Source of the DNA: Novakomyces olei
Taxonomy: Eukaryota
Assembly: GCA_016906335.1 (NCBI GenBank)
Contig: JADEYG010000012.1
Coordinates: forward strand, 1,302,001-1,366,000
Direction: 5' to 3'
DNA: 64,000 nt
A program made the translations under genes and the position numbers. A model generated the notes under the pieces. The model made no database searches, was not told where the DNA came from, and worked only from the letters and a program-made list of their open reading frames with translations. Positions within the stretch are counted from its first letter, which is position 1. Every line of letters starts with the position of its first letter. Below are positions 29,428 to 58,838 of this stretch, piece by piece.

Positions 29428-30252
29428 ATGCCCTGCGACATATTCTATGAGACAACATACAAGACTGCGGTGGAAAGCTGGCTCGAACCTGCGATCGTGA
29501 CAGTTGTCGACTCGCAAAAAAACAGATTGATCACATTTCCTTTTAAATTTTGCCATACTGCCGGTACGCCCAGCGTCAAGAAAGTCGGATACCTGCTCCA
29601 AGTTATCTCGGCGTCTATCACTAACGATCTTGCGACGATTGTGCTGCAATGCGATGAAAGAGCGTGCGACAAGGACGAATTTATAGCTCCGACTACTTAC
29701 ATAATAACATGCCCGCCTGCTGACGAAATATGCTTTCGACCAGGCCCGCAGTGTAAATCTCGAATGCGTCTTTTTTCGGCGTCAATGTCCTCGTCTACTG
29801 TGAGCAATTCTTCAAGGAGCTCTATACGACAAACGAGATTTTGGCTCGAGTGTTTTGCGCGTGATAACGGCCGTTGTATAATATCTGGTAGCCGTGCCTT
29901 GGATTCGAATGAAGCATGCCATATTATTCCATACAGTCTTGGCCAAAACATTTTGTTTGAGCTTACAGGCGGTCTAATTGGCCAATACAGTGTTCAGAAT
30001 GGGTTGACGCTCGAGGTTGGCCTGCACAAGGCTTACGATCAATATAGAATTGGCGTATGGTTTGAAGATGGCCGGTATTATGTTCATGCTTTCTTTCATG
30101 AATTATCGTGTTATCACGGAAACGAAGTTAAATTTGTAGAAATAATACCTGACTCTGAGAAGCCATTTCCTGCTCTGCTTCTCTGGCATTATAGGCAGTG
30201 TGTCATGACGCGTTTCAGAGGCTTTGCTGTCCCCGTTTCAAACATTGGCTGA
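29428..30252 (+). CDS. HNH endonuclease (HNH_2-like) family, copy A, intronless
   Basis: RDNGRCIISG, EACHIIPYS, NGLTLEVGLHKAYD, YHG, LLWHYRQCVMTRFRG; homologous to copies at 37670, 41985, 46603, 48441. Confidence 0.85.
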   Translation: MPCDIFYETTYKTAVESWLEPAIVTVVDSQKNRLITFPFKFCHTAGTPSVKKVGYLLQVISASITNDLATIVLQCDERACDKDEFIAPTTYIITCPPADEICFRPGPQCKSRMRLFSASMSSSTVSNSSRSSIRQTRFWLECFARDNGRCIISGSRALDSNEACHIIPYSLGQNILFELTGGLIGQYSVQNGLTLEVGLHKAYDQYRIGVWFEDGRYYVHAFFHELSCYHGNEVKFVEIIPDSEKPFPALLLWHYRQCVMTRFRGFAVPVSNIG

Positions 30253-30505
30253 CGCTCGATTCGGTCTGCACAAGGCTTATGTTCCGTTTAGAACTGGCAT
30301 ATGGTCTGAAAATGAACGGTAATAGGTTTACGCTTGTTTTCATGAGTTATCGTGCTATCGCGGAAATGAGACCAAAGTTTTACAAATAAATGCCTGAAAT
30401 AAATGCCTGAAATAAATGCCTGAATTGGAGAAGTTTTTTTTCCCGCCTCTACTTCCATATCAGCATTGTGCCACTACGTGTTTCAGAGACGTTCCAATAC
30501 CTGGC
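30246..30505 (+). pseudogene. Decayed tandem duplicate of the 3' end of HNH copy A
   Basis: tgacgctcga..ctgcacaaggctta..tttcatgagttatcgtg..tttcagag aligns to ~30000-30240; stops, indels and a 13-bp x3 expansion at 30384-30422. Confidence 0.8.
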
Positions 30506-36357: not shown

Positions 36358-37669
36358 ATGCTAAAAATATGACAGTTGTAGTCTATTCACGTCGAAGAGC
36401 ATTTGCCTGTCTAAACATACTGGCTTTGGTGAGTCATCAAGGTATTCGAACGTCTGGCTTTCACTTATTTGGATCTGTCACGCAAAGATTGTAAGTAACG
36501 CTAAATGCGTTGTTTATAGATAAGGCGCCCAAACCCTGACTAACCCTGGTCCTGAACAAAAATAATATTAACCCTAACTGACCTTTTTCAAAAAATATTT
36601 TTATTCCATTTTACAGGCATGCTTTATGACTTGCGTGTGAGCTTTGGAAAGCCTTATGGCATTCTGAATTCTATTTGTAAATAATTGCTACTGCACCCGC
36701 TGAGAAAGCAAAAGAAAATAAAGCAAAAGACACGACTTCCTTGTGACTGTTGAAAGGTTGGCTATCATAGTCAGTCAGTCCTGAAGCAATATTTGTGATG
36801 CCGCGACTAGATTCTTTGAAATCTGATCTTGGTCATTTTAAAATGTCGAGTCTGGAATACTAAAGTTGAGAACTAAATTGAAATTGCTTGCCGAAATTCC
36901 GTTAACTTTCTGTTTTATACAAATAATTGTAACCAATTAAGTCCAATGATTGTACGAGGAAGACTAGAATCAGATAACCCTCTTTAAGCCTGACCGAATT
37001 CTTTGTGAAACCGTAATATCAATCTGGACTTTACGATATGGTTCCAGTTCGTGTGGAAATAATTGAAATTTCCCGTACTTCCAATTTTTTGATATTGAAC
37101 AAGAATTTGGCATCTAAGCTTTGATAAATTCGGTGATAAGCACATCATCGCAATAAGCAGGCTAACTAAGCCAGCCATTTCAGTGAGCCAAAGAAACTGT
37201 GTGGTAAAGGAATGCCCTGAGTTGAATAGAGTAAACTATTGTATAGACCGACATAAATCGCCATAAGCAGAACTGATTAAATCAGCTAATTAAAGCTTTT
37301 AATGTTAAATCAGATACGTTTGTAGAGCTCCACCACGAGAACGACTTGTCTCGCAACGCATCGATAGACAATACGACTTCAGCTGCACCTTCAAGCGTAG
37401 GAACTTTGTGACTTACCAAGTGCAGTAAGCGATACCGCTCATAACCCCAGTCACACAATATAGCGCTTGCTCTTTGCAGGCCAGTAACTCAAAACAAGAG
37501 CGAAACAAGTTGACAAAAAAGACGCATGAGAGGAAAATCAGAACATTAGACGCCTTTGACTATTAAGAGCAGTCAGCGGTAACCCGGGGTTTTTTAAAGC
37601 AAACTGCTTTTATGCCTACAAATATCCGTAGCGTAAAACTTATGACAAGTCTAATTCGAACATAAAAGT

Positions 37670-38491
37670 TTACGAAAGCTCATGCAAGGGTACAGCAAAA
37701 CCCCGTAGCCTCGACATGACACACTGGCTATAATGCCATCGCAGCAGTATTGGGCTAGGCTTCTCATCGTCAGGAATGACAGGTGCAAACTGTATTTCAT
37801 GGCCATGAAACCGGGCATAGCTGCGTAGAAAGCTGTGAATAAAATATCGTCCGTCTTCAACCCATATACCCATCTCGAACCTATCAAATCCCTTATGGGA
37901 GCTGCTATCAAGAGTTAAGCCATTGATTAGATCGTAGAGTGAGATACGGAGTCCCGTGCGCTCAAAGTCGGTTAGTTCGTCAAGAAAAGACTGGCCTAGG
38001 CTAAATGGCACTATATGGCAAGCCTCCACATCAGTCCGCGAGAGTGTCAGCATGCTTCGGCCAGTGTCTCGCGAAAAACACTCAAGGCGGAATAAAGACT
38101 GCAATTCCGAACTCCTTGAAGACCTGCTGGTCGTAGATGCACTATCGCTTATTGGTAAGGTTTTGAATCGAGATTTTCCCTGAGGCCCAGGCCGAAATTT
38201 GATGTCCTCCGCCTTGGGAAATAATAAACTGTACGTAGCGGCAACCAGCTTGTCATCAGAATTGCATGGTGAATCGCCGAGACGCAAATCAAATTCGTCC
38301 TGGTGATTCTCAATGCTTGCGGTCAAAGCGCTTTTCAAGTACGCGACGGTAGAAACTCTTGGTGATCCCGCCTCTGTGCAAAATGCCAAAGGAATAGCAA
38401 GAATAAGTTCTGAGCTAGTATTCACGACGCGCACAATAGGTGGGCGTTTCCAATCGACAATTGTTGTTTTGTAAATCACATTTCCAGGCAT
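37670..38491 (-). CDS. HNH endonuclease family, copy B, intronless
   Basis: EACHIVPFSLG, NGLTLDSSSHKGFD, FHG, LLRWHYSQCVMSRLRG; 273 aa. Confidence 0.85.
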   Translation of the reverse strand: MPGNVIYKTTIVDWKRPPIVRVVNTSSELILAIPLAFCTEAGSPRVSTVAYLKSALTASIENHQDEFDLRLGDSPCNSDDKLVAATYSLLFPKAEDIKFRPGPQGKSRFKTLPISDSASTTSRSSRSSELQSLFRLECFSRDTGRSMLTLSRTDVEACHIVPFSLGQSFLDELTDFERTGLRISLYDLINGLTLDSSSHKGFDRFEMGIWVEDGRYFIHSFLRSYARFHGHEIQFAPVIPDDEKPSPILLRWHYSQCVMSRLRGFAVPLHELS

Positions 38492-39261
38492 ATCGCTGTG
38501 CTACTGCTAGGTAAATGGATCTCTGTCTAATCCGTACAGACAAACCTCCTTCTGGAGGATGCTTACTGCACGTAAAGGTGCAAAGTATGAGATCTACTCA
38601 TTGTTGGAATATCGCTGCAATTTCAAGCATTTGCATTTTGGAGTACTATAGTATAAAATCGTGAAATACACTTAATACTATGAACAATTTTTTTGGCATT
38701 GTATTGTGGAGAGCAAAACATGTGCCGTATTTGTGTTTACGTGTTTACAATAGTATTATGGCTCTGTACCGAGCGTGAAATGTGCCGCTAAAGTCATGCG
38801 GCACTTGAAACATTTATGACGAATTTTCAAATACAATTTGAAACTTACCTATTTTTTTCTGTTTGCACTGGTTGCCACCTCACCCAATCTCTCGCTACCT
38901 ACATTTTACTTGACAACAACTAGGACAGCAGCGTTTTCTGCCGTCTGTGATCAGATGCTTCAACCAGAAATACTTGGTGGACGTCTATTATTTGAAACTT
39001 TATTGAAATTTCAAATTTGATATTGAACGTATTTTCGGCCACATTCAAATTAGTGCGGTATCGTACCAGCGTAGAAGCCGTAACCTTTTGGTGAATTATC
39101 CGATAACAAGAATATATGGCCGGCTGACTATCGAAATGCTTCTTCCCTATTTTTACTGCTGTACCGCAGTCTTTTTGTTATTATTAGTAGGAAAAATATA
39201 TGTGATATAATCGATATATATGAACTGGGGAGGTCACTTTGAGAATCGCGAATAATAACAA

Positions 39262-40435
39262 ATGAGACGGAAAAGCTTGAAGCGGGCCAGAAAAGCCGAA
39301 CATCGAGAGACACTGGATACAGAAGAAACCAAAGCAAAACAAAGCAATGACTTATACTCTACAGGGCAGAACTCGGTTGCTGCTGCATGTTCGTTTAAGC
39401 CTGAATCATTTGCTACTGCGGTAATTGCATGGCTTCGCTCAACAACATCAGAGTCTGTCTCTGTTGTATCTAATTCAGGTGTGACTATTTGCGCAATCCC
39501 AGCAGCCTTTATACAGGACATTGATCATGCTGATTGCCAATATCTAATATTTGTTGTTTCTTCGATTGTGAAGAACAAAGGGACATTAGAATTGAACGGC
39601 GTGAAATGTGGACTTCAGGAAAAATTACAAATCGCGTCTTACACTTATAACATTAAGGGTATCTTCGTTTTACCTTTCATCCCCTTTAATGCTTTAGATG
39701 ACTGCGGTATTCAGCTACACGAAGGCCCAGAGTCCAAAAACCCTGCATTGCCTTTCAAACGGCCCAATATCGACGAATATTCGTCCACATATAGCAAATC
39801 TTCTCGAGATTCTTCTACTCAAGTAAGGTTTCATTTACCTTGATAATGGCAGTGTTCTCCTAATACGTATTTTGCTTAGAACCGATTCCGAAATTTGCTT
39901 GGATATAGAGATGGTGGTTGCCTCATATCGGGCCTTTCCATGATCAAAGACGGATGTGAAGCCTGCCATATTATCCCAAAAAGCAGAGGCAATGAAGTAG
40001 GTTTGGTCTTTCGTAAATCTTCTTTACCATTTATGCTTTAATTCATTTTCTTTAATAAATTGGGGCTTTATGTTTCAGCTTACCGAGTTTCTGTAGCTTC
40101 TTAGGCGACTGTTCCAAGACGCTATCGCATTAATGGTGGATATTGACGACATCCGGAATGGACTCATATTGGAATCTGGACTGCATAAGCAGTTCGACAA
40201 ATACAAAATTGGGATATATTATAGGGTACTCCTAGCAAAATGTTTCTAAATGCTAAATTCTTTGAAGGATGGCGATTACGAGATACATTGTTTTGAGTAT
40301 TTTCCTCAGTATCATGGGCAAAAGTTAAGACTTAATACAAATTACCGTGAATACTGGCCTTGGAAGGAATGCTTAGATTGGCATTACAGGCAATGCGTAA
40401 TGGCGCGACTTCGTGTTCATTCTTCTTTTATTTAG
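39262..40435 (+). CDS. HNH endonuclease family, copy C, divergent and intron-containing; introns 39659-39697 (probable), 39823-39879, 39997-40096, 40226-40267
   Basis: Spliced product reads ...STQ|NRFRNLLGYRDGGCLISG...EACHIIPKSRGNE|LLRR...NGLILESGLHKQFDKYKIGIYYR|DGDYEIHCF...LDWHYRQCVMARLR; exon lengths 117/129/168 keep frame. Start codon uncertain. Confidence 0.8.
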
Positions 40436-40840
40436 CGGGGATACTTGGTATCGCATATGAGGGGTCTACATGAACTTTTGGCATGTCATATTGTGCCATA
40501 CAGCTTGGGAGGGTCTTTCCTCGATAAGGTTACCGGTTATGGCGATGGAGGACGTCAGATCAGCTTATCTAGTGTTAATAATGGCTTAACGCCGAGTAGA
40601 AACTTGCTTTCAGTGTTTGACCGGTACCAATTAAGTATTTGGGTGGAAGATGGGGAGTCTTATGTTCACCCATTTTTCGCTCGCCAGGCCGAGTTTCACG
40701 GGGAGCGGCTTAAATGATTCGAGGATGGGTCTGCCAGCGAAAAGCCTGATCCGCAACTGTTACAATGGCATTACTAGCAATGTGTCATGGCGCGGATTCG
40801 AGGTTTCAAAGTTTCTATGCCGGCTGACGATCCCTCCTAA
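40436..40840 (+). pseudogene. 5'-truncated HNH pseudogene (copy D), closest to copy E
   Basis: LVSHMR..ACHIVPYSLG..NGLT..FD..WHY*QCVMARIRGFKVSM; in-frame stops at 40715 (W to *) and 40775 (Q to *); conserved second His replaced by Leu. Confidence 0.88.
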
Positions 40841-41984
40841 ACCGCGAGTGTTCTACTGAAAGGATCCTATCAGAATGCTTTTTGCAGTCCTACCTCGGTT
40901 TAATTATTTTTTTATACAATGTATTATAATGAGGCGAGAAAATATCACAGGACTTTAATGTTCATATTGATTTTACTTTTTGATGCCCTTCTAAAAGGTT
41001 TCTTATATTTCTTCTTATAGTTCATTTAATCTATTTTGAATATTGCCATATTGTTTTGATTCATAAGGATATTTTCTATCTCTGCAGACTGAATAGTATG
41101 AATTCTGGTTCAAAGCCATAATGAAAATTGTATCTTGGACCATTTGGCTTGGTACCAAGATCTACCTCTACATAGCGTTTAAAAGGGAGAGTAAGTCTGG
41201 GCTGGTAAGACAATTTTTTTTTGAATATTCAAATCATCTCCCGTGAGGCAATACAGTTTCGAACACTAATCTTTGCTTTTTGGTATGGACGTTTTTGTAG
41301 TAAGCTGCTATGCAGAAAGTGAACACTTTTGATATAAAGACTTAAATTTTAGAATAATCTCAATACCTTTTTTGTCACTTTTGTTTCAGGTATTTTAACT
41401 TTATCAAATCCGGATAGTAACCAGGTCCAAAAACAGACATGCTGAAGCGAGAGCATTACAAGCGTGCTCGAAACAACGAAAACTTTCTATAAACTCCAGG
41501 ACAAACTTTTCACATCTCTATACATTATTTCCCTCTATAGACGTATGCATTTGCCTATACATAAATTTACGCGAAACCACAATGGAATCGAACTGGAGCA
41601 TGCAAAATGGCCATTTCGGCTTGAACATCCAGCGGCGAGAACTGGTGGTGGGTTAGTAACCATGGATGAAATGGAGCACACAAAAAAATTTTCAGTGCCA
41701 CTAAACGAGAGCGAAACAAAACCGTTGGAGAAAAACAATATATAATAGGGCATCAAAAAAAATAGTAAAAGAATGAAGAAAATTCAATGCTGCTAAAGCA
41801 CTAGAATCAGAAGCCTATGCCCAGTCCGCTCGCCAGCGCACTTTTTTCATTGTCCGCAAGTGAATGCTCCAAAAACACTTTTTGCAAGTAAAAAAAAATG
41901 TCATGCGTGTATAGAGCTTTCCGCCCAACACCCAGCGGTCGCTTATCAAGCCCATATCGCCCAAATACTCCAGGCAAGCACCTC

Positions 41985-42821
41985 CTAGAATGGAGCACGA
42001 TTAATCATGGAAACCTTAAACCCCCTAAACCGCGCCATTATGCACTGCTGGTAATGCCATCTCAGTAGAACTGGGTCGGGCTTTTCCGTGGCCTGGACAT
42101 CAACAAACCATCTGAGCCGCTTCCCGTGATAACGGATTTGACCACTGAGAAAGGAATGCACATAATATTCGTCTCCTTCGACCCATATGCCAAACTCATA
42201 ACGATCAAAAACAGAGTGTAATCCTTTGCTTAAACACAAGCCATCTTTGACACTGTAGAGGCCTATTCTGGGCCCATTGTTCTCATAGTCGGTCACACGA
42301 TCCAGGAAAGACTGTCCCAGGCTGTAGGGCACGATATGGCAAGCCTCGAGTTCCGAAATATTTCTAATGTGCGAAACCAAGCATCCCCCAGAATCACGGC
42401 CAAAAGTGGCCAAGCGGAACGTCGATTGCCGAGCCGAGCTTCGTGAAGATCTACTCACTGTCGACTGAGAGGGTACGGTCGAAAGGTTCTTTGAGAGCGA
42501 TTTTCCTTGCGGCCCGCTTCGAAATTGCATTTCGCGCGCCACTGGGCGATCTAAAACATACGTCGCAGCTTCAAGCTCATCACTGGGACTGCAGAGTTTG
42601 TTCCTTATGGAGATTTGCAGCTGTTCGCGATCGCCGTCGGTCACGATCACGCTGTCCACAATAAAGTAAAGAAATTGCACAGTTCCGACAGAACTGCAAC
42701 GGGCCTTTTCAATAAATAGAAAAGGCACAGAGGCAAACTCCACTCCATCAGAATCCACCAGCTTGATAGAATTTCCTCCCCATGCCTCTACGCTAGTTTC
42801 ATAGTCAAGCGAATGTGCCAT
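41985..42821 (-). CDS. HNH endonuclease family, copy E, intronless
   Basis: RDSGGCLVS, EACHIVPYSLG, DGLCLSKGLHSVFD, WHYQQCIMARFRG; ATG at 42821. Confidence 0.85.
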   Translation of the reverse strand: MAHSLDYETSVEAWGGNSIKLVDSDGVEFASVPFLFIEKARCSSVGTVQFLYFIVDSVIVTDGDREQLQISIRNKLCSPSDELEAATYVLDRPVAREMQFRSGPQGKSLSKNLSTVPSQSTVSRSSRSSARQSTFRLATFGRDSGGCLVSHIRNISELEACHIVPYSLGQSFLDRVTDYENNGPRIGLYSVKDGLCLSKGLHSVFDRYEFGIWVEGDEYYVHSFLSGQIRYHGKRLRWFVDVQATEKPDPVLLRWHYQQCIMARFRGFKVSMINRAPF

Positions 42822-43858
42822 AGCACATTGGGGAGAGAGGGCACCTGCCGACTCAAAGATACGCACCCATGTATTACTTGTAATATATAAATTATGTACA
42901 CTAAGATTTGGCCCTGATTAGGTTAGGCAGAAATTACAGCTAAATATAAAACTTAATTTGGGAATATGGAGAGACGTAAGAATATATTCCATTCAAGACG
43001 GACGGAATCATGGCAAACCTCCATTTAGGCGCAACATGATGATTTTCTCACAGGTCAAAATGATCTGCAGGTCAAAATGATCTGAATTTAAAAGCAGTTA
43101 CGCGAACTTGGACAGCTATTTGACAGCGTCCGCAAAGAGTGAGGACTGGGGGAAAGACGTACGCGTTTGGTACTAATACATCGGTGCTGGTTGCGACAGT
43201 GTGCTTGCTTTTGTGAACGTGCAGCAAGGTTTTTGGGTGACGTTTTGTTATCAATGGTCTGATTGCGTCTAATCTTGTGGCGATTCGCCAGATAGGTTAT
43301 AAGCTCATATAACGAGAAGTGGAACGATGCACAGGGCCGCCCTATAATTTCAGTACGCACTAAGAATGCGCGCGTTAATCACAGACGCGTAATGTCCAAC
43401 AGCAGCTCTTGCACAATCAGCCGTATGAATGTTCATCTCGGCGGTAATACGGATTGAGATTGCTGGAGGGCCACAGTATTTTGCAGATCAGTTTTCAGTA
43501 TAGTCCACCCGTTCTTTGGCGGATTATAGTGTCAAGTCTGCTAGGTCAAGCTCACGATTTGAAGCGTTAGCTATACATCCACTAGCCGAAATAATTAAGG
43601 ATTAGGTAATCCAGCTTAAATTGAGTTTTGATTATTTTCGTCTCGGATTCTTTTAACAAAGTACTCAATCCTGAGACTCACGGCTCTTGTAAGACTTGGT
43701 GCAGAAGCAAACTTTTGATGCTATTTGCTCCTGGCTGATTGTTTTGAATTTTCAAAGTAGTTTATTATTGCGCTAAAAAACTATGGAAATCTACATAAAA
43801 AAGACCTCAATACTCACCGGCACATCTCATATGACACTGATGAATTAGATTCACCGCG

Positions 43859-44817
43859 TGTCAGTATAAGAGGTGTCGGTCAGAGGGATCTCTAAGGCAC
43901 TGACGTGTCATATGCGCCGGTGGACGTTGTGACTCTATTATTGAACGAATACACACAAGAACGGTGCAAATAGCAATCAGAACAATAAGAGTGGGTCACC
44001 AGCGGTAAGGTCCTGCTGTGAGCACTAGGCCAGCGGTGTCCCTCCAAGATCAACTTTCAAATCCATAGTGCTCCAGCTCAATACAAACAAGATCAAGCCT
44101 GAGAGCACCCCCAGCTGGCTATACAGCACAGAAACTGATGAAGCTCGATCTTGCTGTACAAGCGGAATGGAAATCAGGCCAATTCATGGAAAACCGTGTT
44201 CCAACGCATACAACTGCCAAATACCAAATCAACTAGCCCAAAGCCACCCCTCTATGCCTAGCGGAAATCTGCCCAGTCCTAAAGCCACAGTCGGCGATAG
44301 CGGTAGTCCTTGTCCGGGCCTGAGACATAGAGGGGCCCCGAACGTGCCGTCTCCAAAGTCAATGCAGGGCCAAAAAATCACCGAAAAACCTGGAAAGACT
44401 CCAAAAAAGGGAGAAAAGGCCACGCCGGTATCGAACACCCATTACCGAGCGGAAAACAAGCCCTGAAACCACAGGTTTGAGCGGACAGAGTCCGTACCCC
44501 GGCTAAAGGTGATTTACCAGGTAACAAACAAGTGCGGGAAATAGCGTCCGGACCTCGGGATCCCGAAGGATGGAGAACTGGGGGAGCGAAACCACCTGGC
44601 TTTATACCCTGGGCAAAAGGCCTCTGGCAAATTAGCAATCACAGAAACGTTCTAATGTCCTCAATTATGGTTGCGAAAACGTGTAAAATACTCAAAAAAT
44701 TCGACGACAATCACAGAAACGTTCTAATTCCCTCAATATTTATTCCGAAAAAGTGTAAATTTGCATGAAAGAGTCGCGCAGATCCTGTTTCTGTGTTCAT
44801 ATTTATCTATCCCGACA
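43859..44817 (-). mobile_element. Candidate solo LTR (~960 bp)
   Basis: TGTC...GACA termini; flanks cgcg / cgtg (4-bp TSD with one mismatch); internal direct repeat caatcacagaaacgttctaat x2; minus-strand TATAAA ~44605; GC-richer than flanks; minus-strand start TGTCGGGATA is shared with 59090. Confidence 0.45.
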
Positions 44818-45699
44818 CGTGAAATTGAGGCAGATTATGTTTTCATGACGATTAGCCTGTTTCGGGTTATAAATCAATTTTTGGGCCGTATATGATTGGT
44901 CAGTCTATTGTATTTAGCACGCTTTCGTTCTCTGTGTTCCAAATAAGTAATAGCCCTAATCGCGTTTCCGTGATTTTAATTTCGGCTCGCTTTAATTCAT
45001 ATTAGCAAGTAATACGTTCTAATTAAAATGTTGGTAAATAGCTCATACTTGATTTATTATTGGCATCGAGACATATAAGTAATCCAAAAACATACACAAT
45101 AAACGCGCCTTAAATACTAGAATATTTATGTAACTGAGGGGTAAAGATACTTGAAATTAATAGACATGCTCGATAACGTTTAATAGTTTACGAATCTCCA
45201 CAGCTGTAAATTCGAGCACGCGCAAGCACGCGATTGCAGATTTTATGCGAACTAGAAAAGCTTTAGACTGATTGATTGATGGACTGATTGACTAACTGCG
45301 TTTTGCCTTTGGCCAAATCAAAAATTAAGTTATACTTTAAATTATAACGTGCTTATTTGATTTTTTACCAAGCCCACGTACAACGCTATAACATGTCAGA
45401 AAAATCTCCCGCGGGCTTATCTGACTTCTTATGGGACGCGAACGTAATGGAAATTGACAATAGTAGGCTATTGGAGGATTCTAGGAGATTTTTTTAAAAA
45501 ATATTTTGCATGTAAGCCTCAGGATTTATTGTGTATCGCTCTTAAATTCATATGTCAATGGCTTACTTCGGCTAAGGTTATCCTGGACGATACGCACGAA
45601 TTATCCGTATTTAAAATAATCAAGTGGATCATTTGGAGATTTGATTGATACAGTGAAAAAGAATTTATGAAGTAGTAAATAAAATAGGCTTCATGTGCC

Positions 45700-46560
45700 A
45701 GCCTCGATTTCAAGTTCTTTTGCAGCAATTGCGTCAATTAGAAGATCAGCGAAACATCGGTCAAACACAATTCCGTAAACTATTCTAGCGCCTTCTCAGC
45801 ATTGCCAGACATTGGCCCGTTTTGATATTCGATGTAGGTATTCTGTCGTCACCTCCGTTTATACAAATATCACCGGCGACATTGAGGCACTTCATACTTC
45901 CTCCGTGACCTGGTCTGAGTTCACGGCTCCCGGCGACTGTTCAGATTCCAGACGCAGAGTCCACCTTGCTAGGAGCTCGGAATAGCCATTATTTAATCCT
46001 TCATATTGACTAAAAAGATTTGGGATGTATGTGCATACATCACATGGCGGCTATTTCCCGTATCAAGGTTCCAGGCACCAATGTTTTGCTTGGCGCTATG
46101 CGCATAGGAATCGGGTATCAGATAAGAGTTGCCTTCCTGGTCCCAGCCTCATGAATCAGCCAGTACACCTGAACAGTGGCAGGTCAAAACGACGGGCGCA
46201 AGCCGGCACTCGAACGCAGCCCACTCATACTTATTTCTTTCGTCTAAAGCCACATTCCAGCTAACACGCCATTCCAACAAATAACGCTGTATCAGTCGCG
46301 ACTACCCCTCACTTTGGATATATTTCTTGAGAGCACTTGTCGCGATATCACCGCCACTGCCATTGCCATCTCCATATAACCCCAGCGCTCGTACAGCCCC
46401 TTCATCACCGGCACTGCCAGGTGACAGAGTTGGAATCGCCAGCAGTAGCTGCAATCGTGGAGGCCGCGACTCCGCCAAAAACACATTTCAAAAAGACACA
46501 AAGTCCTAGTCGTGTTGTGCTGAAATACGCAAGTGACAGGATTAAAATTAAAACCCATAC
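45700..46560 (-). pseudogene. Decayed F-box/WD40-repeat gene (Cdc4/Met30-like architecture)
   Basis: Minus-strand pieces: QRYLLEWRVSWN, IGAWNLDTGNSRHVMYAHTSQI, GGLCVWNLNS, GHGGSMKCLNVAGDICINGGDD..NIKTGQCLAML; several stops and frameshifts. Confidence 0.65.
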
Positions 46561-46602
46561 GGAGATCAGTAGGCTAGCTATCAAAAAACTTGAGTAAGTA
46601 AC

Positions 46603-47421
46603 TCATATGTTGAATCCCCGAAATCGTGCCATAAGACATTGATCATAATGCCAGTTGATAAGACGAGAATCGGGCTGGCGCGACTTATCCTCAAAATTTC
46701 TCAAATATGCAAACCTGCCATGAAATTGCTTGGCCTCTCTGCCAAAAGAATGAATAATCAAGCGCTCCCCATACACATAAAAGCCCAGTTTGTATCTATC
46801 ATATAAGCTGTGGATGCGCTTTTCAAGTACAATTCCATCTCGCTCACTGTACAGTGTAACCGATACTCGCTCTCCGGTGATTCTGTCCAAATATTGCTGT
46901 CCCAAGCTATACGGCACAATATGAGCAGCTGTTAATTCATCAGCATCGTATGCACCAGTCACAATGCACATTCCATCCCGAAGGAAAAGTTTCTCACGGA
47001 ATGCAGACTGGCGGCTAGAAGATCTTGAAGACCGGCTGACTGTTGACATGCCATCAGTATCGTGATATTTCTTCGATATTGATTTTCCCTGTGGCCCTGG
47101 GCGAAATTGAAGCAACTCATGTGGTGGTTCTTTCAAAACGTAAGTGGCAGCAATTAAAGACTCTTCCGGCCCTACAGGCCGACCACTTTTCGTGAATAGT
47201 TCAATGTGCGGTGGCAAGTTAGAAACAATCCCCCTGAGAACACGATGCAAATAGGCCACTGTATCGACCGGGTTTGATCCCGTAGTCACGAATGCAAGCG
47301 GTACCGACGCGAACGAAGAACCCCGTGATGTCTCCACATATGCGAAACCTTTATCGGGCCAGAATTCAGAGCTGATGTCGTAATCAATATCTTTGATCCA
47401 TCCTTCTTCCTCTCCTGTCAT
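46603..47421 (-). CDS. HNH endonuclease family, copy F, intronless
   Basis: RDGMCIVTG, AAHIVPYSLG, DGIVLEKRIHSLYD, FHG, INWHYDQCLMARFRG; 272 aa. Confidence 0.87.
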   Translation of the reverse strand: MTGEEEGWIKDIDYDISSEFWPDKGFAYVETSRGSSFASVPLAFVTTGSNPVDTVAYLHRVLRGIVSNLPPHIELFTKSGRPVGPEESLIAATYVLKEPPHELLQFRPGPQGKSISKKYHDTDGMSTVSRSSRSSSRQSAFREKLFLRDGMCIVTGAYDADELTAAHIVPYSLGQQYLDRITGERVSVTLYSERDGIVLEKRIHSLYDRYKLGFYVYGERLIIHSFGREAKQFHGRFAYLRNFEDKSRQPDSRLINWHYDQCLMARFRGFNI

Positions 47422-48440: not shown

Positions 48441-49281
48441 ATGGAGGAGCACGAGCTAGACTATCGGACAAGTACAATGGGATGGGGCCCACCAATAGCG
48501 AGAGTACTTGACTCGGAAGGCGTTCAGTTTGTGACTATTCCTCTTGATTTGGTCGGCAAGGCTGGTAGTGAGGGAGTTACGGTGGTGCGTTACGGTGGTG
48601 CGTTACCTCTAGTTTGTGGTAGAAAGCACTATTGAAAACGGTAAGCAAGATATTGAGTTAGTCCGTGCAGGTACAATTTGCAAAAGTACCGATCAATTGC
48701 TTTCGGGGGATACCCTGACACGTCCAAGCGCAGACAATCTCAAGTTTCGGTGTGGCCCACAAGGTAAATCATTATCGCGAAATTTCACGCCTTCAGGGTC
48801 AGATTCAACTGTGAGCCGATCATCTCGAAGCTCCACTCGACAATCGCAGTTTCGCATCGAGACAATCAGTCGCGATTCGGGTTCTTGCTTAATCACAAAA
48901 GAGCGAATGCGTTCGAGGCTTGTTACATGCCACATTGTACCATATAGCCTTGGGCAGTCCTTTCTTAATTCAGTAACTAATTTTGTCAATACTGGCCTAC
49001 AAATTGGCCTGTACGATGTCCATAATGGGCTCACTTTACGCAGGGACCTGCATTTCAATTTTGATCATTATGAAATAGGTATTTGGACGGAGAATGGGGA
49101 GTATTTCGTACACTCTTTTCTCGGAGACGCAGATTACCATGGCAAAAAGCTGATATGGTTCTCTGAGATACCGGAAAGTGAGAAGCCTTTGCCTTTACTG
49201 CTTCAATGGCATTATCAACAGTGTATAATGACGCGCTACCGAGGGTTTAAGGTGTCTATGAGTTTTCATGATGCTCATTAG
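48441..49281 (+). pseudogene. HNH endonuclease family, copy G, full length but inactivated
   Basis: ATG 48441 (MEEHELDYRTS); 13-bp duplication 48576-48601 shifts the frame, plus in-frame TAG at 48610; downstream TCHIVPYSLG..NGLTLRRDLHFNFD..WHYQQC intact. Confidence 0.87.
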
Positions 49282-53070: not shown

Positions 53071-53456
53071 TCTTTGCGACTGCTATGAATCAGACTTGGA
53101 TAAGTTTGAGGAGCTGCGAGCTTTATGCAGACAAGGCGCTATGAATTTATTACGCTTTTTGGATTGCTCTTGAATGCATATCGATTTATGGAGTCGTGTT
53201 TGTTATCTTGCAGTAAGTTGGGGTAGGGTCCCAAAAAGGAAGGTCTAGTGACGCTATCGATAGAACATCGGCAATTCTTGTATAGGAACAGTGGAGTATT
53301 TGGGGTAATTATGATCTTTCCTTCTATAGATGGAAATAAGTTGATAGATAGGCGGCAAAGCGATGTCTGATGCTGCTATACGTGGGATGCCGTGAAATTA
53401 AAAGAGCAATGAGAATTCCACCTCAAGAATCGTAAATTCAACATTGTCTACAAACC

Positions 53457-54354
53457 ATGGGTCTTCGCAAGATTGAGATTAACTGCGATATGGGCGAGGG
53501 CTACGGCAAGTGGAAGATGGGTCCGGACGAAGAGCTCATGCCTCTCATCGATTCTGCAAACGTAGCTTGTGGGTTTCATGCGTATGTTTTTCAGTGGCAA
53601 AACAGTGAGAAAATAAAAGAGAAGCTAAAACATCACATAACCGAAAACATTGAAGTATAATTCTCATTTTTAATCTAGTGGCGACTACAATATAATGCCG
53701 CGTATGGTGAAACTTGCAAAGCAGCACAACGTCCGTGTTGGATCGCATCCTGGTCTACCCGACATGATAGGATTTGGCCGAAGAGCCATTGCAATATCTC
53801 CGGAAGAAATTTATAATATCGTGATGTATCAAACCGGAGCGCTTAAAGCATTTTTAGACGCTCAAAATTGGCCTTGTAAGTTGGACAGCTTCAAAAAGGC
53901 GGCTAACATGAATACAGTGTGTTACATTAAACCTCATGGACAGCTGTATTTCTATGTGGCCGAGAACGATGATATAATGCGTGCTGTGCTGCGCGCAGCT
54001 AAAGATTTCAAGGTCCCTGTGATGGGCGCCAAAAATGATCATTACAAAACAATGGCAACAGAAATGGGGGTGGAGCTAATTGAAGAGTTTTATGTCGATA
54101 TAGACTGGAACAAGGACCGAAAACTAGTTCCTGTCAAGCCCGGTTCGTACAAAGCACCAGAGACAATTTATACAAATATTCTGTCGTGCGGTCTAGAGGA
54201 CACTACAGTTGACAATGAGGGGAACAGACTGAAAATGGGATTTGATAGGGTACCCTTCACCGTGTGTTTACACAGCGATATGCCATCGGCGTTGGAGAAC
54301 GTCAAAGCCGCTCGAGAAGCGGTAAACCGCATTAATGAGCAACGATTTAGTTAG
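53457..54354 (+). CDS. lamB: LamB/YcsF family protein (PxpA-like lactam utilisation protein); introns 53582-53678 and 53876-53917
   Basis: [52 protein letters not shown]. Confidence 0.9.
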
Positions 54355-54970
54355 CAAGTAAATTAGTTTATTTCTCTACTCCTCCTAATTTGGAGTTCTA
54401 CTTTTCTAAGTATCTTCATTAGAAATATAATATAGATCTCAGTAGATTCGAAGCTTCGTAGAAACGTAAACACGTAACAATAAAATAATCGTGCCGCAAA
54501 GCCAACAAAAAACAGGCATCAATCGAAGTGAGTGTGCGTAATGATTTTGGCTGAATGGGTTGAAATATTATTTGGAGACTAAATAATTCAATGACCCCCT
54601 TCATCAACAGTTATAGTTGGGGTAAGTCCCAGATAAAGCCGCGGTCATTCTTCTCCATTCATCAGAAATGGCGCGTATCTTGAACGAATTCTGAAAGAAA
54701 TGACGCTTAATCTCAGCGGATATTAGATACAATAGTGTCTTATCTATATGGATGGGTGAGGAGTGTCTTGGAGATGCAACATTGTGAAGGCGCTTCTAGG
54801 TTTGTTATATACCCCAAGCCACAAGCAATGGGGATAAACAACTTTATTGTTAGTCTCATATTTTTGCATTCGAACCGAGTTTGCGCTTGCTATAGCCGTC
54901 ATCCCACGTAACGAATTTGACAAATTTGAGCCTTGAGCTGCGGCTACTGACCTTTACACAAAACAAAAAG

Positions 54971-57900
54971 ATGCACTCGATCAGAAAAGTGTTGGTAGCG
55001 AACCGAGGTGAAATTGCAGTTCGACTTTTGCGAGCTTGCCGAGAATGTGGAATTGCGACTGTGGCGATTTACAGCGAAGCGGACATGGCATCAGCACATG
55101 TCGCGCTTGCGGATGAGCGAGAGCAACTGCCGGGAGACAACAGTTCCGCGTATTTGAATGGAGATGCAATTGTGGATATCTGTATTCGGCACAAAGTGGA
55201 CGCGATCCTACCGGGTTACGGTTTTCTGAGTGAAAACACAGAATTTTGTGAAGCCGCTACCGCCGCGGGAGTAACGTTTGTTGGACCCCAGCCCTCTGTA
55301 ATTACAAAGTTTGGTCTTAAACATCTCGCACGGCAGCTGGCGATTGATGCTGGCGTTCCTGTTTGTGAGGGCACAGAACTCCTTGAGGAGGAAGAGGAGG
55401 CAGTAGCTGCAGCAAGCCGTATTGGCTATCCTGTAAGTCAAATTATCAATAAAACAATATGCTTAAGGAGTCTAAACATTTAGGTTATTTTGAAAGCAAC
55501 TTCGGGTGGTGGAGGCATGGGCTTACAAGCATGCTTTACGGAAGATGAAACACGCAAATACTTTGCCGTCGTCAAAAGTCGGGGTGCGGCTCTATTTAAA
55601 AACAGTGGCGTGTTTATCGAAAAGTTCTTCCAGTCGGCACGACACATTGAAGTTCAAGTCTTTGGCAACGGAAAAGGCTGTGCAATCCATTTTGGAGAGC
55701 GCGAGTGTAGTTTGCAGCGCAGACACCAAAAAATAATTGAGGAGTGCCCGTCGCCGTTTGTCACACCAGAGCTGCGTCGCCAATTGACCCAGGCTGCAAC
55801 AGCGCTAGCGGCTTCTGTAAACTACGCGTCAGCTGGAACTGTTGAATTTTTGGTGAATGATAAAGATGGCAGCTTTTTCTTTCTCGAAATGAACACGAGG
55901 CTTCAAGTCGAACATGGCATAACTGAGCAATGCTACGGAGTCAACCTTGTAAAGCTCATGCTTATGCAGGCTGATGCAGAACGCAGCAATCATGCGCTTG
56001 AGGCAGAGTACTTATTGTCCCTACAAAAGTCGGAGCCCCTTGGTGCAAGCATAGAATGCCGTTTGTATGCTGAAAATCCGTCAAACAATTTCAGTCCCTC
56101 GCCTGGAGTACTGCAGCATGTTGAGTGGGCAGACGGTGATGGAGTTCGGGTTGATACGTGGGTAAAGCGTGGGACTCACGTAACTCCGTATTATGGTAAT
56201 TCAGACTGTGATTAAAACCTTTTTGCTAAATTGTATAATTAGACCCTTTGTTGGCGAAAATAATGGTTCATGCAGACGATCGGGAAGCTGCAAGGAAGCA
56301 GATGCTGCATGTTCTCGACCGGTCACGTGTATGCGGGCCGCCCAACAACAAGCATTTTATGTCCTGCATTTTGAAGAACGCAGACTTTGTCGCTGGGAGG
56401 ACGCTGACAAGCTTTTTGGAGAAATCGTTTGATTATGAGCCGCTAGTAATGAGCATTGTTGAGCCTGGTGCCTACACCACAGTACAAGATCTTCCAGGAC
56501 GATTCAACATAGGGCACGGCGTACCCAAGAGCGGACCCATGGATGAACTGGCATTTAAGAGTAACGGTCTTTGTCCTTTAGTTCCTTTTTTCTTTGACTT
56601 TCTTATTTTATATTTTATATTTTTTAATTTTTAATTTTGAACCTAACCTCAAAAGTCGCAAATATTGTCGTAGGCAATGATGTCAACACGGAAGCGCTCG
56701 AGGTCACAATCCGTGGGCCGGTGATTAAATTCCATGCACAAGCTATAGTTGCTGTGTGTGGTGCACCAATGCAGGTTACGATAGACTGTATCCCGAGGCC
56801 AATGTGGCAGCGATTGCGTGTCGACCGAGGCCAGACGTTAAGTATTGGAACCGCTGAAGCGGGAGGTTGTCGATGCTATTTAGCGGTGCTTGGGGGTTTT
56901 CCAGAAATTCCAAAGTATCTCGGCTCAAAGTCGACATCTCCATCTGTCAAGTGGGGCGGTTTCCAGGGCCGCCAGCTTTTGGCGGGCGATTCTATCGCCA
57001 TTTCCGACCAGTCGAAAACGGTGTGGGAGCCGTTCGCTATCCCTCAATCATTGCAGCCCGCTTATCCGTCGCACTCCGAGGTATGGTGCATGTCTGGGCC
57101 TCACGACTCGGACGACTTTTTAACAGCAAAGGATCGCGAGACGCTCTACTCGGCTTCGTGGAAGATTAGCCACAATGCGAATCGTGTCGGTATCCGACTC
57201 ATTGGCCCACGTCTTGAGTGGGCGCGTAAAAGTGGGGGTGAAGGAGGCAGCCATCCAAGTAATGTGTGCGATTATGGCTACCCGAGCCCGGGTGCGCTTA
57301 ATTGGGGCGGCGATTCGTGTGTCGTGTTTGCTGTTGACAGCCCGGATCTCGGTGGACTCTTGTCTTCGACAACAATTGTCTCGGGCGATTTGTGGCGCGT
57401 GGGCCAGTTAAAGCCGGGTGACACGGTTCGATTCAAGCGTACTACTTTTGAAAATGCTATAACACTAAGGAAAAACCTTGATTCGTTTATTTCCGCACTA
57501 CAATCTCACGAGCTTGAGTGTGGCCCGCTGGACTTGACTCTTCCTGACGATGCAACAGGGGCGATTTTGTACAGCACAGGTAGTGGTGAAGGCTGCAGCG
57601 ACAGCCGACCAGGGTTCACTATACGGCAAGGCGGAGACTCGTTTCTCTTTGCTGAGTTTGGTCCGATGAAGTTTGATCTGCTGCTCCGCTGCCGCGTTCA
57701 AGTTCTTCTAAGCAGGATGGAAGAGCTGCGGCTCCCTGGTATTCTTAAAATGCTGCCCCATGTGCGATGTCTGACGATTGTGTTCAATGGCTCAGAGCTG
57801 GAGCAAAGCCGGCTAATCGATCTATTGGTTCGTATTGAGCGAGAAATGCCCAACAAAATCACGATGGAGCTCGACTGCCGACGGATCCGAATGCCGATTG

Positions 57901-58838
57901 TCATGGACGACGAAGCCCTTACCGAATCGATAAACCGATATACGGAGACCCAACGGCCTACTGCGTCTTATCTTCCGGATAATCTCGAGTTTCTGGCCAA
58001 AAGCAACGGACTCTCAAGCCGACGCGAGGCATTTGAGTACGCACTCAAGTGTCCAATGCTCGTTGTCGGCTGCGGGTTTCTCGGTGGGACTCCGACGGCT
58101 TTGCCGCTCGATCCCCGGTATGCATTGCTGGCACAAAAGTATAATCCCACACGAACATCGACGCCAGCAGGGGCAGTGGGTGTGGGAGGAAAGCTTGTGT
58201 CTATCTATCCCGCAGAGCAGCCAGGTGGTTATATTCTCTGGGGTCGGACGTTACCAGCATGGGACACATATGGATCACGGCGGTCCTTTTCACCAGAGAC
58301 ACCTTGGCTCTTTGTGGATTTTGATATTATCGAGTTTTACGAGGTTACGCAGTCCGAATTTCGCGAGGCCCTGATTGCCTTCGAAGCAGGGCAATACTTG
58401 TTCTCGGTAAAGCCAAGCGCGCTTGATATAGCAAGAGTAGTGGACCAAACAGAGGCAGTGAAGCAGGAAATTGAAGCGTTTGAAAAGCAGCAAGTGCGTG
58501 CATCAGAAGAAATGGCTACCGTAGAACGCGATATGCTTTCGTCTTGGGAACAGAGTCTAGTAGCAGAGGCAAAAGCAGATAAGCTCAGAGCCAGCGAGCT
58601 TTTACAAAGCCAGGACGCTATCAGAGCCGTTTCTGGCATGAATGCAAATGTCTGGAAATTGGTTGTCCAACCAGGAGAAACCGTAAAATCGGGGCAGTTG
58701 GTGGCTATCTTGGAAGCAATGAAGATGGAGATTAACGTCTATGCACCAACAGACGCTAACAACAAACATGTTGCACAGATCGTGGTAAAGCCGGGCTCAA
58801 TTGTCAATCCTGGAGACACAATCATCATTTTCAAATAA
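54971..58838 (+). CDS. Urea-carboxylase-type biotin enzyme (biotin carboxylase + AHS2 + AHS1 + biotin carrier), LamA-like; introns 55433-55483, 56196-56242, 56561-56655
   Basis: VANRGEIA, PGYGFLSEN, GERECSLQRRHQK, EMNTRLQVEH, TTVQDLPGR, GGEGGSHPSN, KYNPTRT, EAMKME; no N-terminal amidase (allophanate hydrolase) domain. Confidence 0.9.

What the first reader, a model, noticed from the sequence alone, without database searches (positions are those of the whole stretch)
39262..40435. One HNH copy has 3-4 introns while all others are intronless: possible retrocopy origin of the expanded clade
Seen: copy C must be spliced at three introns (plus a likely 39-nt in-frame one) to give a complete nuclease and is the most divergent (IPKSRG vs [IV]P[YF]SLG). 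Copies A, B, E, F and G are uninterrupted at the same positions, in a genome where many neighbouring genes have introns. Inference: a reverse-transcribed mRNA founded the intronless clade, which then spread locally; a Copia RT is encoded in this window. Independent acquisition or horizontal transfer is the alternative.
Basis: partly seen in the sequence, partly recalled or inferred. Interest (0 to 1): 0.7.

Follow-up and report, generated by a model that had tools for sequence, protein, structure and literature searches.

The report
Old introns kept in one nuclease paralog
One gene in a fungal cluster of HNH nuclease genes still carries four short introns that sit at the same places as in distant relatives from other fungi, so its intron-free neighbours most likely lost theirs long ago, an ordinary if tidy example of wholesale intron loss.

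Summary
Copy C (39262-40435, +) needs three GT..AG segments (57, 100 and 42 nt, all phase 0) removed to give an open HNH_2 reading frame. A fourth, 39-nt in-frame segment (phase 1) also behaves as an intron. Copies A, B, E, F and G and fragment D are uninterrupted at those four places.

All four positions and phases recur in homologous genes on metagenome contigs that group with Tremellomycete proteins. The match is exact for three and within one codon for the fourth. Unspliced ORF calls from other collections show V...Q read-through inserts at the same sites. C's introns are therefore real and old, and C is not a decaying copy.

C is not the parent of its neighbours. It belongs to a separate small clade with P0021 and P0031. 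The intron-free lineage is widespread in other organisms: B has a 71% identical relative and F a 60% identical one. Any loss therefore long predates this array.

Outgroup rooting is unresolved, so loss is favoured over gain by parsimony and known fungal trends, not shown. There is no poly(A) tract and no link to the Copia element. C sits inside the array, which fits in-place recombination with a cDNA better than a retrocopy. No RNA data were available.

The parts
39262..39658 (+). Copy C, exon 1 (start codon to the donor of the 39-nt intron). It encodes a basic N-terminal extension of about 45 residues plus most of the family's N-terminal domain.
39659..39697 (+). Copy C intron i0: 39 nt, phase 1, GTATCT..TTTAG, in frame and stop-free. 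It could be spliced or read through.
   Evidence: It equals the 13-residue insert of C against all relatives. L001, L005, L008, L015 and L019 have a phase-1 intron five codons after the same invariant Tyr.
39698..39822 (+). Copy C, exon 2 (GPESKN ... SSRDSSTQ).
39823..39879 (+). Copy C intron i1: 57 nt, phase 0, GTAAGG..CTAAT..TTAG, with an in-frame TGA.
   Evidence: The same site and phase were found in 11 of 12 loci examined and as V...Q read-through in P0112 and P0134.
39880..39996 (+). Copy C, exon 3 (first half of the HNH_2 domain, including CHIIPKSRGNE).
   Evidence: Pfam HNH_2 positions 1-21, 17.8 bits; alignment.
39997..40096 (+). Copy C intron i2: 100 nt, phase 0, GTAGGT..TGTAG. Its length shifts the frame.
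   Evidence: A phase-0 intron follows SRPD in 15 of 19 loci, one codon nearer the conserved Pro than in C. P0078 shows V...Q read-through there.
40097..40225 (+). Copy C, exon 4 (second half of the HNH_2 domain: NGL, LHKQFD).
   Evidence: Pfam HNH_2 positions 40-65, 29.7 bits against a cut-off of 21.
40226..40267 (+). Copy C intron i3: 42 nt, phase 0, GTACTC..TGCTAAAT..GAAG, with an in-frame TAA.
   Evidence: The same site and phase were found in 23 of 29 loci. 6 of 7 insert-bearing ORFs carry V...Q inserts there.
40268..40435 (+). Copy C, exon 5 and stop codon (DGDYEIHCF ... WHYRQCVMARLRVHSSFI).
29428..30252 (+). Copy A, an uninterrupted HNH_2 gene.
30263..30502 (+). A', a degenerate tandem duplicate of A's own 3' part, with several stops.
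   Evidence: direct repeat D1 at 77% identity
37670..38491 (-). Copy B, an uninterrupted HNH_2 gene, divergent from C across about 770 nt.
   Evidence: It is 71% identical to P0001.
40436..40840 (+). D, a pseudogene fragment (E-like C-terminal half with 2 in-frame stops). It begins directly after C's stop codon and is uninterrupted at i2 and i3.
41985..42821 (-). Copy E, an uninterrupted HNH_2 gene.
46603..47421 (-). Copy F, an uninterrupted HNH_2 gene. Its closest relative is P0011 (60% identity).
48462..49281 (+). Copy G, a pseudogene (a short duplication causes a frameshift, plus an in-frame stop). It is uninterrupted at C's four intron sites.

Best explanation
Copy C is an intact member of the fungal HNH_2 nuclease family, or was intact until recently. 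It has kept the family's old five-exon, four-intron architecture.

The other copies in the array (A, B, E, F and the pseudogenes G, D and A') belong to a lineage that lost all four introns precisely. That lineage is widespread in other organisms. The loss therefore happened long before this species existed and before the local duplications, and C did not give rise to its neighbours.

The simplest mechanism for a clean, simultaneous loss of four introns is a spliced mRNA copied into cDNA. The intron-bearing and intron-free lineages sit in one tandem array. For that reason I favour recombination of the cDNA with an existing tandem copy (in-place loss, the cDNA-recombination model) over insertion of a free retrocopy that later spread.

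Shown: the exon-intron structure of C, the conservation of its intron sites, and the age and spread of the intron-free lineage. Inferred: the direction of change, the cDNA step, and that C is spliced in vivo.
For: 1. C's structure. There are three obligatory GT..AG segments plus a 39-nt in-frame one. Removing them gives a gap-free alignment to all relatives. The 311 exon codons are open (P about 2e-9; 0 of 20000 shuffles). Intron GC is 0.31-0.36 against exon GC 0.39-0.45. The splice signals resemble those of 7 introns in 5 neighbouring genes: GTAAGT, GTATGT, GTAATT or GTAACG donors, CTAAC, CTAAT or CTAAA branch motifs, YAG or AAG acceptors.

2. DNA-level conservation. In metagenome loci L001, L005, L008, L015 and L019 the homologous gene has four GT..AG introns:
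- phase 1, five codons after the invariant Tyr (matches i0);
- phase 0 after ...Q, before ..FR (matches i1);
- phase 0 after SRPD (matches i2, one codon off);
- phase 0 between ..Y.K and DG.Y.H (matches i3).
Over all loci where both flanking exons were detected, the automatic search put a phase-0 GT..AG intron at C's site in 11 of 12 (i1), 15 of 19 (i2) and 23 of 29 (i3). The loci comprise about 5 sequence types.

3. Independent hint from unspliced ORF calls (Logan, ENA and JGI sources). Of 7 proteins with an insert at i3, 6 have inserts that start with V and end with Q. Of 4 proteins with an insert at i1, 2 do the same. P0078 does so at i2. Five more ORFs run on with V right after SR[PS][DE].

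4. C's spliced product aligns without gaps across i1, i2 and i3 to its nearest relative P0021 (38% identity..KSRGDD/LVKA.. against ..KSRGNE/LLRR..).

5. Age of the intron-free lineage. B-P0001 is 71% identical and F-P0011 60%, while local copies are 35-53% identical to each other. Uninterrupted full-length ORFs lie on contigs of 4-12 kb from other sources. L031 and L032 carry an uninterrupted, degenerate copy.

6. Loss within C's own clade. P0021 and P0031 are uninterrupted at all four sites, P0021 on a 15-kb contig. If these are unspliced calls, wholesale loss has happened in this family at least once more.

7. Background. cDNA recombination is described as the best-supported mechanism of intron loss, and runs of adjacent losses are taken as its signature, in a Cryptococcus study (PMC2395259; passages read).
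Against: - Polarity is not demonstrated. With distant HNH_2 proteins as outgroup, the backbone is a polytomy (root support 47/30). AU tests reject neither C+II as a clade (p 0.46), nor I+C (p 0.19), nor I alone (p 0.49). A root inside the intron-free group, with four gains on the stem of C-clade plus group II, is therefore not excluded.
- No intron state is known for the outgroup.
- No RNA evidence is available, so splicing of C in vivo is untested.
- i0 (39 nt) and i3 (42 nt) are shorter than all 7 neighbouring introns (47-105 nt). Three of C's four donors are weak (GTATCT, GTAGGT, GTACTC). C may be poorly spliced or starting to decay.
- i2 is offset by one codon between C and group II.
- The many loci are not independent; there are about 5 sequence types, all grouping with Tremellomycete proteins.
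- Whether P0021, P0031 and the Logan ORFs come from DNA and not from cDNA-derived contigs is inferred, not seen.
- The choice between in-place cDNA recombination and retroposition rests only on the genes being adjacent.
Confidence: 0.6

Rival explanations
1. A reverse-transcribed mRNA of an intron-bearing gene inserted as a retrocopy. That retrocopy founded the intron-free clade, which then multiplied locally, perhaps using a Copia reverse transcriptase.
For: All four introns are missing precisely and together in A, B, E, F, G and D. The intron sites are old. A Copia-type pol lies in the window, so reverse transcriptase exists in this genome.
Against: - The intron-free lineage is shared with other organisms and predates the array's present copies.
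- C is not their nearest intron-bearing relative in any resolved sense.
- No A-run of 7 or more lies within 500 nt 3' of any copy, though divergence would have erased one anyway.
- The intron-bearing and intron-free genes are neighbours, whereas retrocopies usually land elsewhere.
- Nothing links the Copia element, more than 11 kb from the nearest copy, to the genes.
Confidence: 0.2
2. Intron gain. The family was originally intron-free, as the A, B, E and F lineage still is. Four introns were acquired once on the stem leading to C's clade plus the basidiomycete group II.
For: The outgroup-rooted trees place the root among intron-free lineages, with weak support. A C+II clade is not rejected (AU p 0.46).
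Against: - It needs four gains in one gene of about 0.9 kb, followed by complete re-loss in P0021 and P0031 inside C's own clade.
- By identity, C is nearer the intron-free group (31-38%) than group II (26-27%).
- C's introns show no similarity to each other or to anything else in the window; the best chance-level hit has E 0.09. There is therefore no sign of introner-like spread.
- Recalled, not from a call: fungal intron evolution is generally reported to be dominated by loss.
Confidence: 0.17
3. C is a dead copy, and its frame breaks only look like introns.
For: - C is the most divergent copy.
- It departs from otherwise invariant motifs: GPESKN for GPQGKS, SRGN for SLGQ, RVH for RGF.
- It has weak donors and two very short 'introns'.
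- Pseudogenes D, G and A' lie nearby.
Against: - The exons are open over 311 codons (P about 2e-9).
- Every break is GT..AG, and each restores collinearity exactly.
- All four breaks coincide in site and phase with introns of distant homologs.
- The 'odd' motifs are shared with P0021 and P0031, so they are clade characters and not decay.
- The catalytic His, Asn and His positions are kept.
Confidence: 0.03

Closest known systems
Reverse-transcriptase-mediated intron loss: a spliced cDNA recombines with the genomic copy. This is the model discussed for Cryptococcus in PMC2395259 (passages read).
   Same: Adjacent introns are removed precisely and simultaneously, leaving a collinear coding sequence. 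Here that applies to all four sites in A, B, E, F, G and D.
   Different: No intermediate is seen here. Every copy has either all four introns or none. The event is too old for junction or poly(A) evidence, and its direction rests on parsimony because the root is unresolved.
Processed retrogenes (retrocopies)
   Same: Intron-free paralogs sit beside an intron-bearing relative, and a retrotransposon reverse transcriptase is present in the genome.
   Different: There is no poly(A) tract. The intron-free copies lie in the same tandem array as the intron-bearing one. No parent-daughter relation appears in the tree. The intron-free lineage is shared across organisms.
Fungal HNH_2 (Pfam PF13391) proteins with a family-specific N-terminal domain, for example the Cryptococcus neoformans H99 protein that its source names CNAG_02013 (P0023 cluster)
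   Same: Same domain order: an N-terminal domain of about 130 residues, a Ser-rich linker, then HNH_2. The spliced loci L001 and L019 group with that protein and carry C's four intron sites.
   Different: C is only 26-27% identical to that group and has a basic N-terminal extension of about 45 residues. No function is known for any member. The His-Me finger survey lists fungal PF13391 proteins only in a group defined by restriction enzymes (PMC5714182, Table 1 passage read).
Introner-like elements (multiplying introns of some fungi; recalled, not from a call)
   Same: Short introns that are present in one paralog and absent in others.
   Different: C's introns are not similar to each other or to other window sequence. 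They sit at anciently shared sites, so they are not recent insertions.

Membership tests
Pfam HNH_2 (PF13391) nuclease domain | Profile match above the gathering score | tested here: met
   A 37.0, B 28.8, E 37.1 and F 37.7 bits against a cut-off of 21. For C, the fourth exon alone scores 29.7 bits (profile positions 40-65) and the third 17.8 bits (positions 1-21), because intron i2 splits the domain. P0021 scores 47.2 and P0031 45.1 bits.
Pfam HNH_2 (PF13391) nuclease domain | Conserved His (..CHI[IV]P..), Asn (..NG[LI]..) and His (..LH..FD..) positions of the His-Me finger. Assigning these as catalytic is recalled, not from a call. | tested here: met
   C has CHIIP, RNGLIL and LHKQFD in register with the invariant columns of the family.
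Spliceosomal introns (C's four segments) | GT..AG boundaries whose removal restores the frame and collinearity | tested here: met
Spliceosomal introns (C's four segments) | Length and signals typical of the host genome | tested here: inconclusive
   i1 (57 nt) and i2 (100 nt) fall within the 47-105 nt range of 7 neighbouring introns. i0 (39 nt) and i3 (42 nt) are shorter than all 7. i1 and i3 have clear branch-like motifs (CTAAT, TGCTAAAT). The donors GTATCT, GTAGGT and GTACTC are weak.
Spliceosomal introns (C's four segments) | Site and phase shared with homologs | tested here: met
   The match is exact for i0, i1 and i3; i2 has the same phase but is one codon off.
Spliceosomal introns (C's four segments) | Spliced reads across the junctions | not testable with these tools
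   No RNA run could be listed for the region, and no genome is held.
Processed retrocopy | Lacks the parent's introns | tested here: met
   A, B, E, F, G and D are uninterrupted at all of C's sites that they cover.
Processed retrocopy | 3' poly(A) remnant | tested here: not met
   No A-run of 7 or more lies within 500 nt downstream of any copy. At most 10 A occur in any 15-nt window. At this divergence, absence is weak evidence.
Processed retrocopy | Target-site duplications, with homology ending at the transcript ends | not testable with these tools
   The copies share only coding-region similarity at 35-53% protein identity. No flank similarity is left.
Processed retrocopy | An identifiable intron-bearing parent as the closest relative | tested here: not met
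   C groups with P0021 and P0031, not with the local copies. B and F have closer relatives in other organisms.
Introner-like elements | Introns similar in sequence to each other or to other introns of the genome | tested here: not met
   blastn-short of the four introns against the 64-kb window gave only chance-level hits (best E 0.09). The rest of the genome could not be searched.

The most novel reading that the evidence does not exclude
The family may be unusually prone to RNA-mediated turnover. Complete, precise loss of the same four introns seems to have happened more than once: in the large intron-free group, and again in P0021 and P0031 inside C's own clade. The genes also sit in fast-diverging tandem arrays full of pseudogenes, here and on a metagenome contig (L010). 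These HNH nucleases could therefore be conflict-type or selfish genes, such as a toxin or an incompatibility-like factor, whose copies are repeatedly re-made from their own transcripts. On this reading C is the last copy that has not been re-made in this way.
Probability: 0.08. Interest if true: 0.6.

Novelty: new member of a known kind. Interest (0 to 1): 0.3.

Why it matters
The case gives a clean, checkable gene model for copy C. Automatic annotation could easily call C a pseudogene or miss its 39- and 42-nt introns.

It also shows that this fungal HNH_2 family had a four-intron structure shared between very distant fungi. Paralogs with all introns or none, side by side in one array, are a convenient natural test bed for wholesale intron loss through cDNA. 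The phenomenon itself is well known, though, and the family's function is still unknown.

Tried and rejected
- RNA evidence: none was listed for window 37500-43000.
- Whole genome: none is held.
- Close relatives of C by word search with exon 1: 29 candidates, none at E <= 0.01.
- Earlier notes of this scan: nothing found by place, by words or by sequence.
- Organism identity: the urea-carboxylase-like ORF gave at best 46% identity to a Leotiomycete protein, with about 40% to both ascomycetes and basidiomycetes. Neighbouring genes are typical fungal ones, including Zn2Cys6 factors. The taxon stays undetermined, and the asco/basidio split could not be used to root the tree.
- First small tree (15 rows): C sat on a branch of 3.5 substitutions per site and was unplaced. 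It was superseded by the larger trees.
- Outgroup rooting and AU tests: unresolved.
- Introner-like origin: rejected within the window.
- Relic introns inside the intron-free group: none seen. P0037 ends at ..SLGQ, and P0009 diverges by what looks like a frameshift. Neither is evidence.
- My automatic junction finder failed or chose another solution in 6 of 29 loci at i3 (L007, L012, L021, L025, L026, L027), 4 of 19 at i2 (L017, L028-L030) and 1 of 12 at i1 (L007). I did not curate these by hand.
- Rows dropped before the trees. For the full-length tree: proteins with fewer than 215 filled profile columns, P0044, P0048 and P0104 (they lack the HNH core), L008 (near-duplicate of L015) and L031 (degenerate). 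For one search: four long-branch rows (P0097, P0056, P0058, P0050). One search used 43 rows that I chose.
- Literature: the search for 'PF13391' plus 'fungi' returned 4 papers, none on this family's gene structure.

Full report
WHAT IS THERE

The window is fungal. It holds Zn2Cys6 and 'fungal-specific' transcription factors, MFS sugar transporters, a LamB-like gene next to a urea-carboxylase-like gene, and a Copia-type pol at 60614-64000. GC is about 0.40.

tblastn with copy B, together with frame inspection, finds a loose array of one family between 29.4 and 49.3 kb:
- A, 29428-30252 (+)
- A', a degenerate partial duplicate of A, 30263-30502 (+)
- B, 37670-38491 (-)
- C, 39262-40435 (+)
- D, a truncated E-like fragment with two stops, 40436-40840 (+), starting right after C's stop codon
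- E, 41985-42821 (-)
- F, 46603-47421 (-)
- G, 48462-49281 (+), with a frameshifting short duplication and an in-frame stop

A, B, E and F each match Pfam HNH_2 above the cut-off.

THE OBSERVATION

C is split into ORF pieces. Three segments must be removed to give one open frame: 39823-39879 (57 nt), 39997-40096 (100 nt) and 40226-40267 (42 nt). All three are GT..AG and phase 0, and each contains a stop or shifts the frame.

After removal, C aligns across those three sites without a single gap to every other copy and to nine outside relatives. A fourth GT..AG segment, 39659-39697 (39 nt, phase 1), is in frame and stop-free. It corresponds exactly to the only large insert (13 residues) that C has against all other rows.

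The 311 spliced codons are open. The probability is about 2e-9 from composition, and 0 of 20000 shuffles were open. The four segments are more AT-rich than the exons, with GC 0.31-0.36 against 0.39-0.45.

Pfam sees the two halves of HNH_2 on either side of the 100-nt segment (profile positions 1-21 and 40-65). The His, Asn and His positions are in place.

A, B, E, F and G, and D where it exists, are uninterrupted at these sites. C is the most divergent copy: 31-35% identity to the others, against 35-53% among them.

ARE THEY INTRONS OF THIS GENOME'S KIND?

I found seven introns in five neighbouring genes by following conserved protein sequence across ORF breaks:
- 47-105 nt long;
- donors GTATGT, GTAAGT (twice), GTAATT, GTAACG, GTAACA, GTATAA;
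- branch-like CTAAC, CTAAT or CTAAA;
- acceptors TAG or AAG.

C's 57-nt intron (GTAAGG..CTAAT..TTAG) and its 100-nt intron fit this picture. The 42-nt intron has the same TGCTAAAT branch-like motif as a neighbouring 47-nt intron, but a poor donor (GTACTC). The 39- and 42-nt segments are shorter than all seven neighbours.

No RNA run could be listed, so splicing in vivo is untested.

THE DECISIVE COMPARISON

A profile of the intron-free proteins was searched against 1.84 billion representatives. It returned 1788 relatives at E <= 0.001, of which the best 150 were listed.

Mapped on that profile, C's introns lie at positions 92/93, 131|132, 169|170 and 210|211. Inserts and ORF ends in the hits pile up at the same places.

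- Site 210 (i3): 7 proteins carry an insert, and in 6 of them it begins with V and ends with Q (P0092, P0106, P0126, P0133, P0135, P0138; not P0079). That is what a phase-0 GT...CAG intron gives when an ORF caller reads through it.
- Site 131 (i1): 2 of 4 inserts are V...Q (P0112, P0134).
- Site 169 (i2): P0078 has a V...Q insert. Five further ORFs continue with V directly after SR[PS][DE] and then lose similarity.

These proteins come from Logan, ENA and JGI contigs and are unspliced calls.

I then fetched DNA. An alignment of such fragments retrieved 33 metagenome loci. Profile hits on their reading frames show the same five-exon pattern in most of them.

In L001, L005, L008, L015 and L019 I could place all four introns, all GT..AG and 41-60 nt long:
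- a phase-1 intron five codons after the family's invariant Tyr, exactly as in C's 39-nt segment;
- a phase-0 intron after ...Q and before ..FR, as in C's 57-nt intron;
- a phase-0 intron after ..PQSRPD, the same phase as C's 100-nt intron after ..PKSRGNE but one codon nearer the Pro;
- a phase-0 intron between ..FY.K and DG.Y.H, exactly as in C's 42-nt intron.

The spliced L001 product is a complete 269-residue family member from Met to stop.

Over all loci with both flanking exons detected, the automatic search put a phase-0 GT..AG intron at C's site in 11 of 12 (i1), 15 of 19 (i2) and 23 of 29 (i3). The misses were not curated. The loci fall into about five sequence types and so are not 33 independent witnesses.

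These genes are only 26-27% identical to C. They group with proteins that their sources name as Cryptococcus, Naematelia and Tremellales.

Four coincidences of site and phase, out of roughly 800 possible positions, cannot be chance. C's introns, the 39-nt one included, are therefore old, and C is not a broken copy.

WHERE C BELONGS

C's exon 1 has no close relative by word search. In the larger trees C groups with P0021 (38% identity; SH-aLRT 98) and with P0021 plus P0031 (97/94). These two share C's 'odd' motifs, PK[ST]RG[ND][ED]L and an ending ..R[LF]R[VPI]...

The family then has three parts:
- a large intron-free group, which I call group I. It holds A, B, E, F, G and many Logan ORFs, with the PFSLGQ motif.
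- the small C clade;
- group II, with the SRPD motif, which includes basidiomycete proteins and the four-intron loci.

B is 71% identical to P0001 and F 60% to P0011. That is closer than any two window copies are to each other. The local paralogs therefore separated before these organisms did.

Uninterrupted full-length ORFs of group I lie on contigs of 4-12 kb. L031 and L032 carry an uninterrupted, degenerate copy.

P0021 (on a 15-kb contig) and P0031 are uninterrupted at all four sites. P0031 has a 21-residue V...Q insert elsewhere, just before LSWHY, which suggests it too is an unspliced call.

DIRECTION OF CHANGE

The three parts meet at one node, so the tree alone cannot say whether introns were lost or gained unless it is rooted.

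I used distant HNH_2 proteins as outgroup, on the 146 shared columns only. The backbone is a polytomy and the root has 47/30 support (a quick version is). AU tests do not reject C+II (p 0.46), I+C (p 0.19) or I alone (p 0.49) as clades.

Polarity therefore rests on other arguments:
- One clean event removing four introns is simpler than four gains followed by complete re-loss in P0021 and P0031.
- C is nearer to group I than to group II by identity.
- C's introns show no introner-like similarity to anything in the window.
- Recalled, not from a call: fungal intron evolution is generally dominated by loss.

I put about 0.8 on 'introns ancestral'.

MECHANISM

Precise loss of all introns of a gene together is the signature usually assigned to a spliced cDNA. 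A Cryptococcus study treats cDNA recombination as the best-supported mechanism and treats losses of adjacent introns as its mark (PMC2395259, passages read).

Retroposition and in-place recombination cannot be told apart directly:
- no A-run of 7 or more lies within 500 nt 3' of any copy;
- the flanks share nothing;
- both signals would have decayed at this divergence anyway.

The one usable clue is position. The intron-bearing C sits inside the array, 770 nt from B and abutting D. That is what in-place conversion of one tandem copy predicts, and it is not what a dispersed retrocopy predicts. Nothing connects the Copia element to the genes.

VERDICT

The gene model for C has five exons.

It is wrong in its particulars: the event was not local or recent, C was not the parent, and there are no retrocopy hallmarks.

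This is a well-documented kind of event in a family of unknown function. The His-Me finger survey lists fungal PF13391 proteins only within a group defined by restriction enzymes (PMC5714182, table passage read). A full-text search for PF13391 with 'fungi' found 4 papers, none on this family's gene structure.

Interest is modest. The main practical value is the corrected annotation and a neat all-or-none intron contrast within a single array.

Noticed in passing
window 40436-40840 and 30263-30502: Two array members are followed directly by a truncated, stop-ridden C-terminal fragment in the same orientation. D follows C and is E-like. A' follows A and is a 77% identical duplicate of A's own 3' part. 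This suggests repeated unequal or partial tandem duplication in the array.
   Followed up: partly
window 48462-49281: Copy G is a pseudogene. A short duplicated stretch (..VTVVRY.. appears twice) shifts the frame, and an in-frame stop follows.
   Followed up: partly
proteins P0044, P0048, P0084, P0096, P0104, P0115: Several group II proteins lack the catalytic stretch of the HNH domain (roughly C's third exon). They include annotated models that their sources name as Cryptococcus decagattii and Tilletiaria anomala. These may be annotation errors, exon-skipped isoforms or nuclease-dead paralogs.
   Followed up: no
protein P0031: P0031, a member of C's own small clade, is uninterrupted at C's four intron sites. 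It has a 21-residue V...Q insert just before LSWHY, which may be a different intron site not present in C or group II.
   Followed up: no
L010:5169-5447: A second family member begins about 1.8 kb downstream of the first on the same metagenome contig. Tandem arrays of this family are therefore not peculiar to the window's organism.
   Followed up: no
L031:2446-3153 and L032:2070-2777: An uninterrupted group-I-like copy (PYSLGQ motif) with an in-frame stop and CPIIP in place of CHIIP. It looks like a dead intron-free copy in another organism.
   Followed up: partly
window 53436-58838: A LamB/YcsF-like gene with one intron lies in tandem with a urea-carboxylase-like gene that has at least three introns (biotin carboxylase, carboxyltransferase and biotinyl domains). 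The best outside match (46%) is a protein in which the LamB domain is fused to the carboxylase.
   Followed up: partly
window 60614-64000 (-): A Copia-type polyprotein ORF (gag-pre-integrase, integrase, RVT_2), open over 1128 codons and cut by the window end. The surrounding region drops to GC 0.34-0.38 with a strong AT skew.
   Followed up: no
window 42900-46600: About 3.7 kb between E and F has no ORF of 150 codons. It holds only short Pro/Gly/Ser-rich frames on both strands and a 52-nt direct repeat (44636 and 44708). Its nature is unknown.
   Followed up: no
window 39262-39400: C alone has a basic N-terminal extension of about 45 residues (MRRKSLKRARK...), absent from all relatives in the alignment. 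It could be a nuclear-targeting signal or a mis-set start.
   Followed up: no
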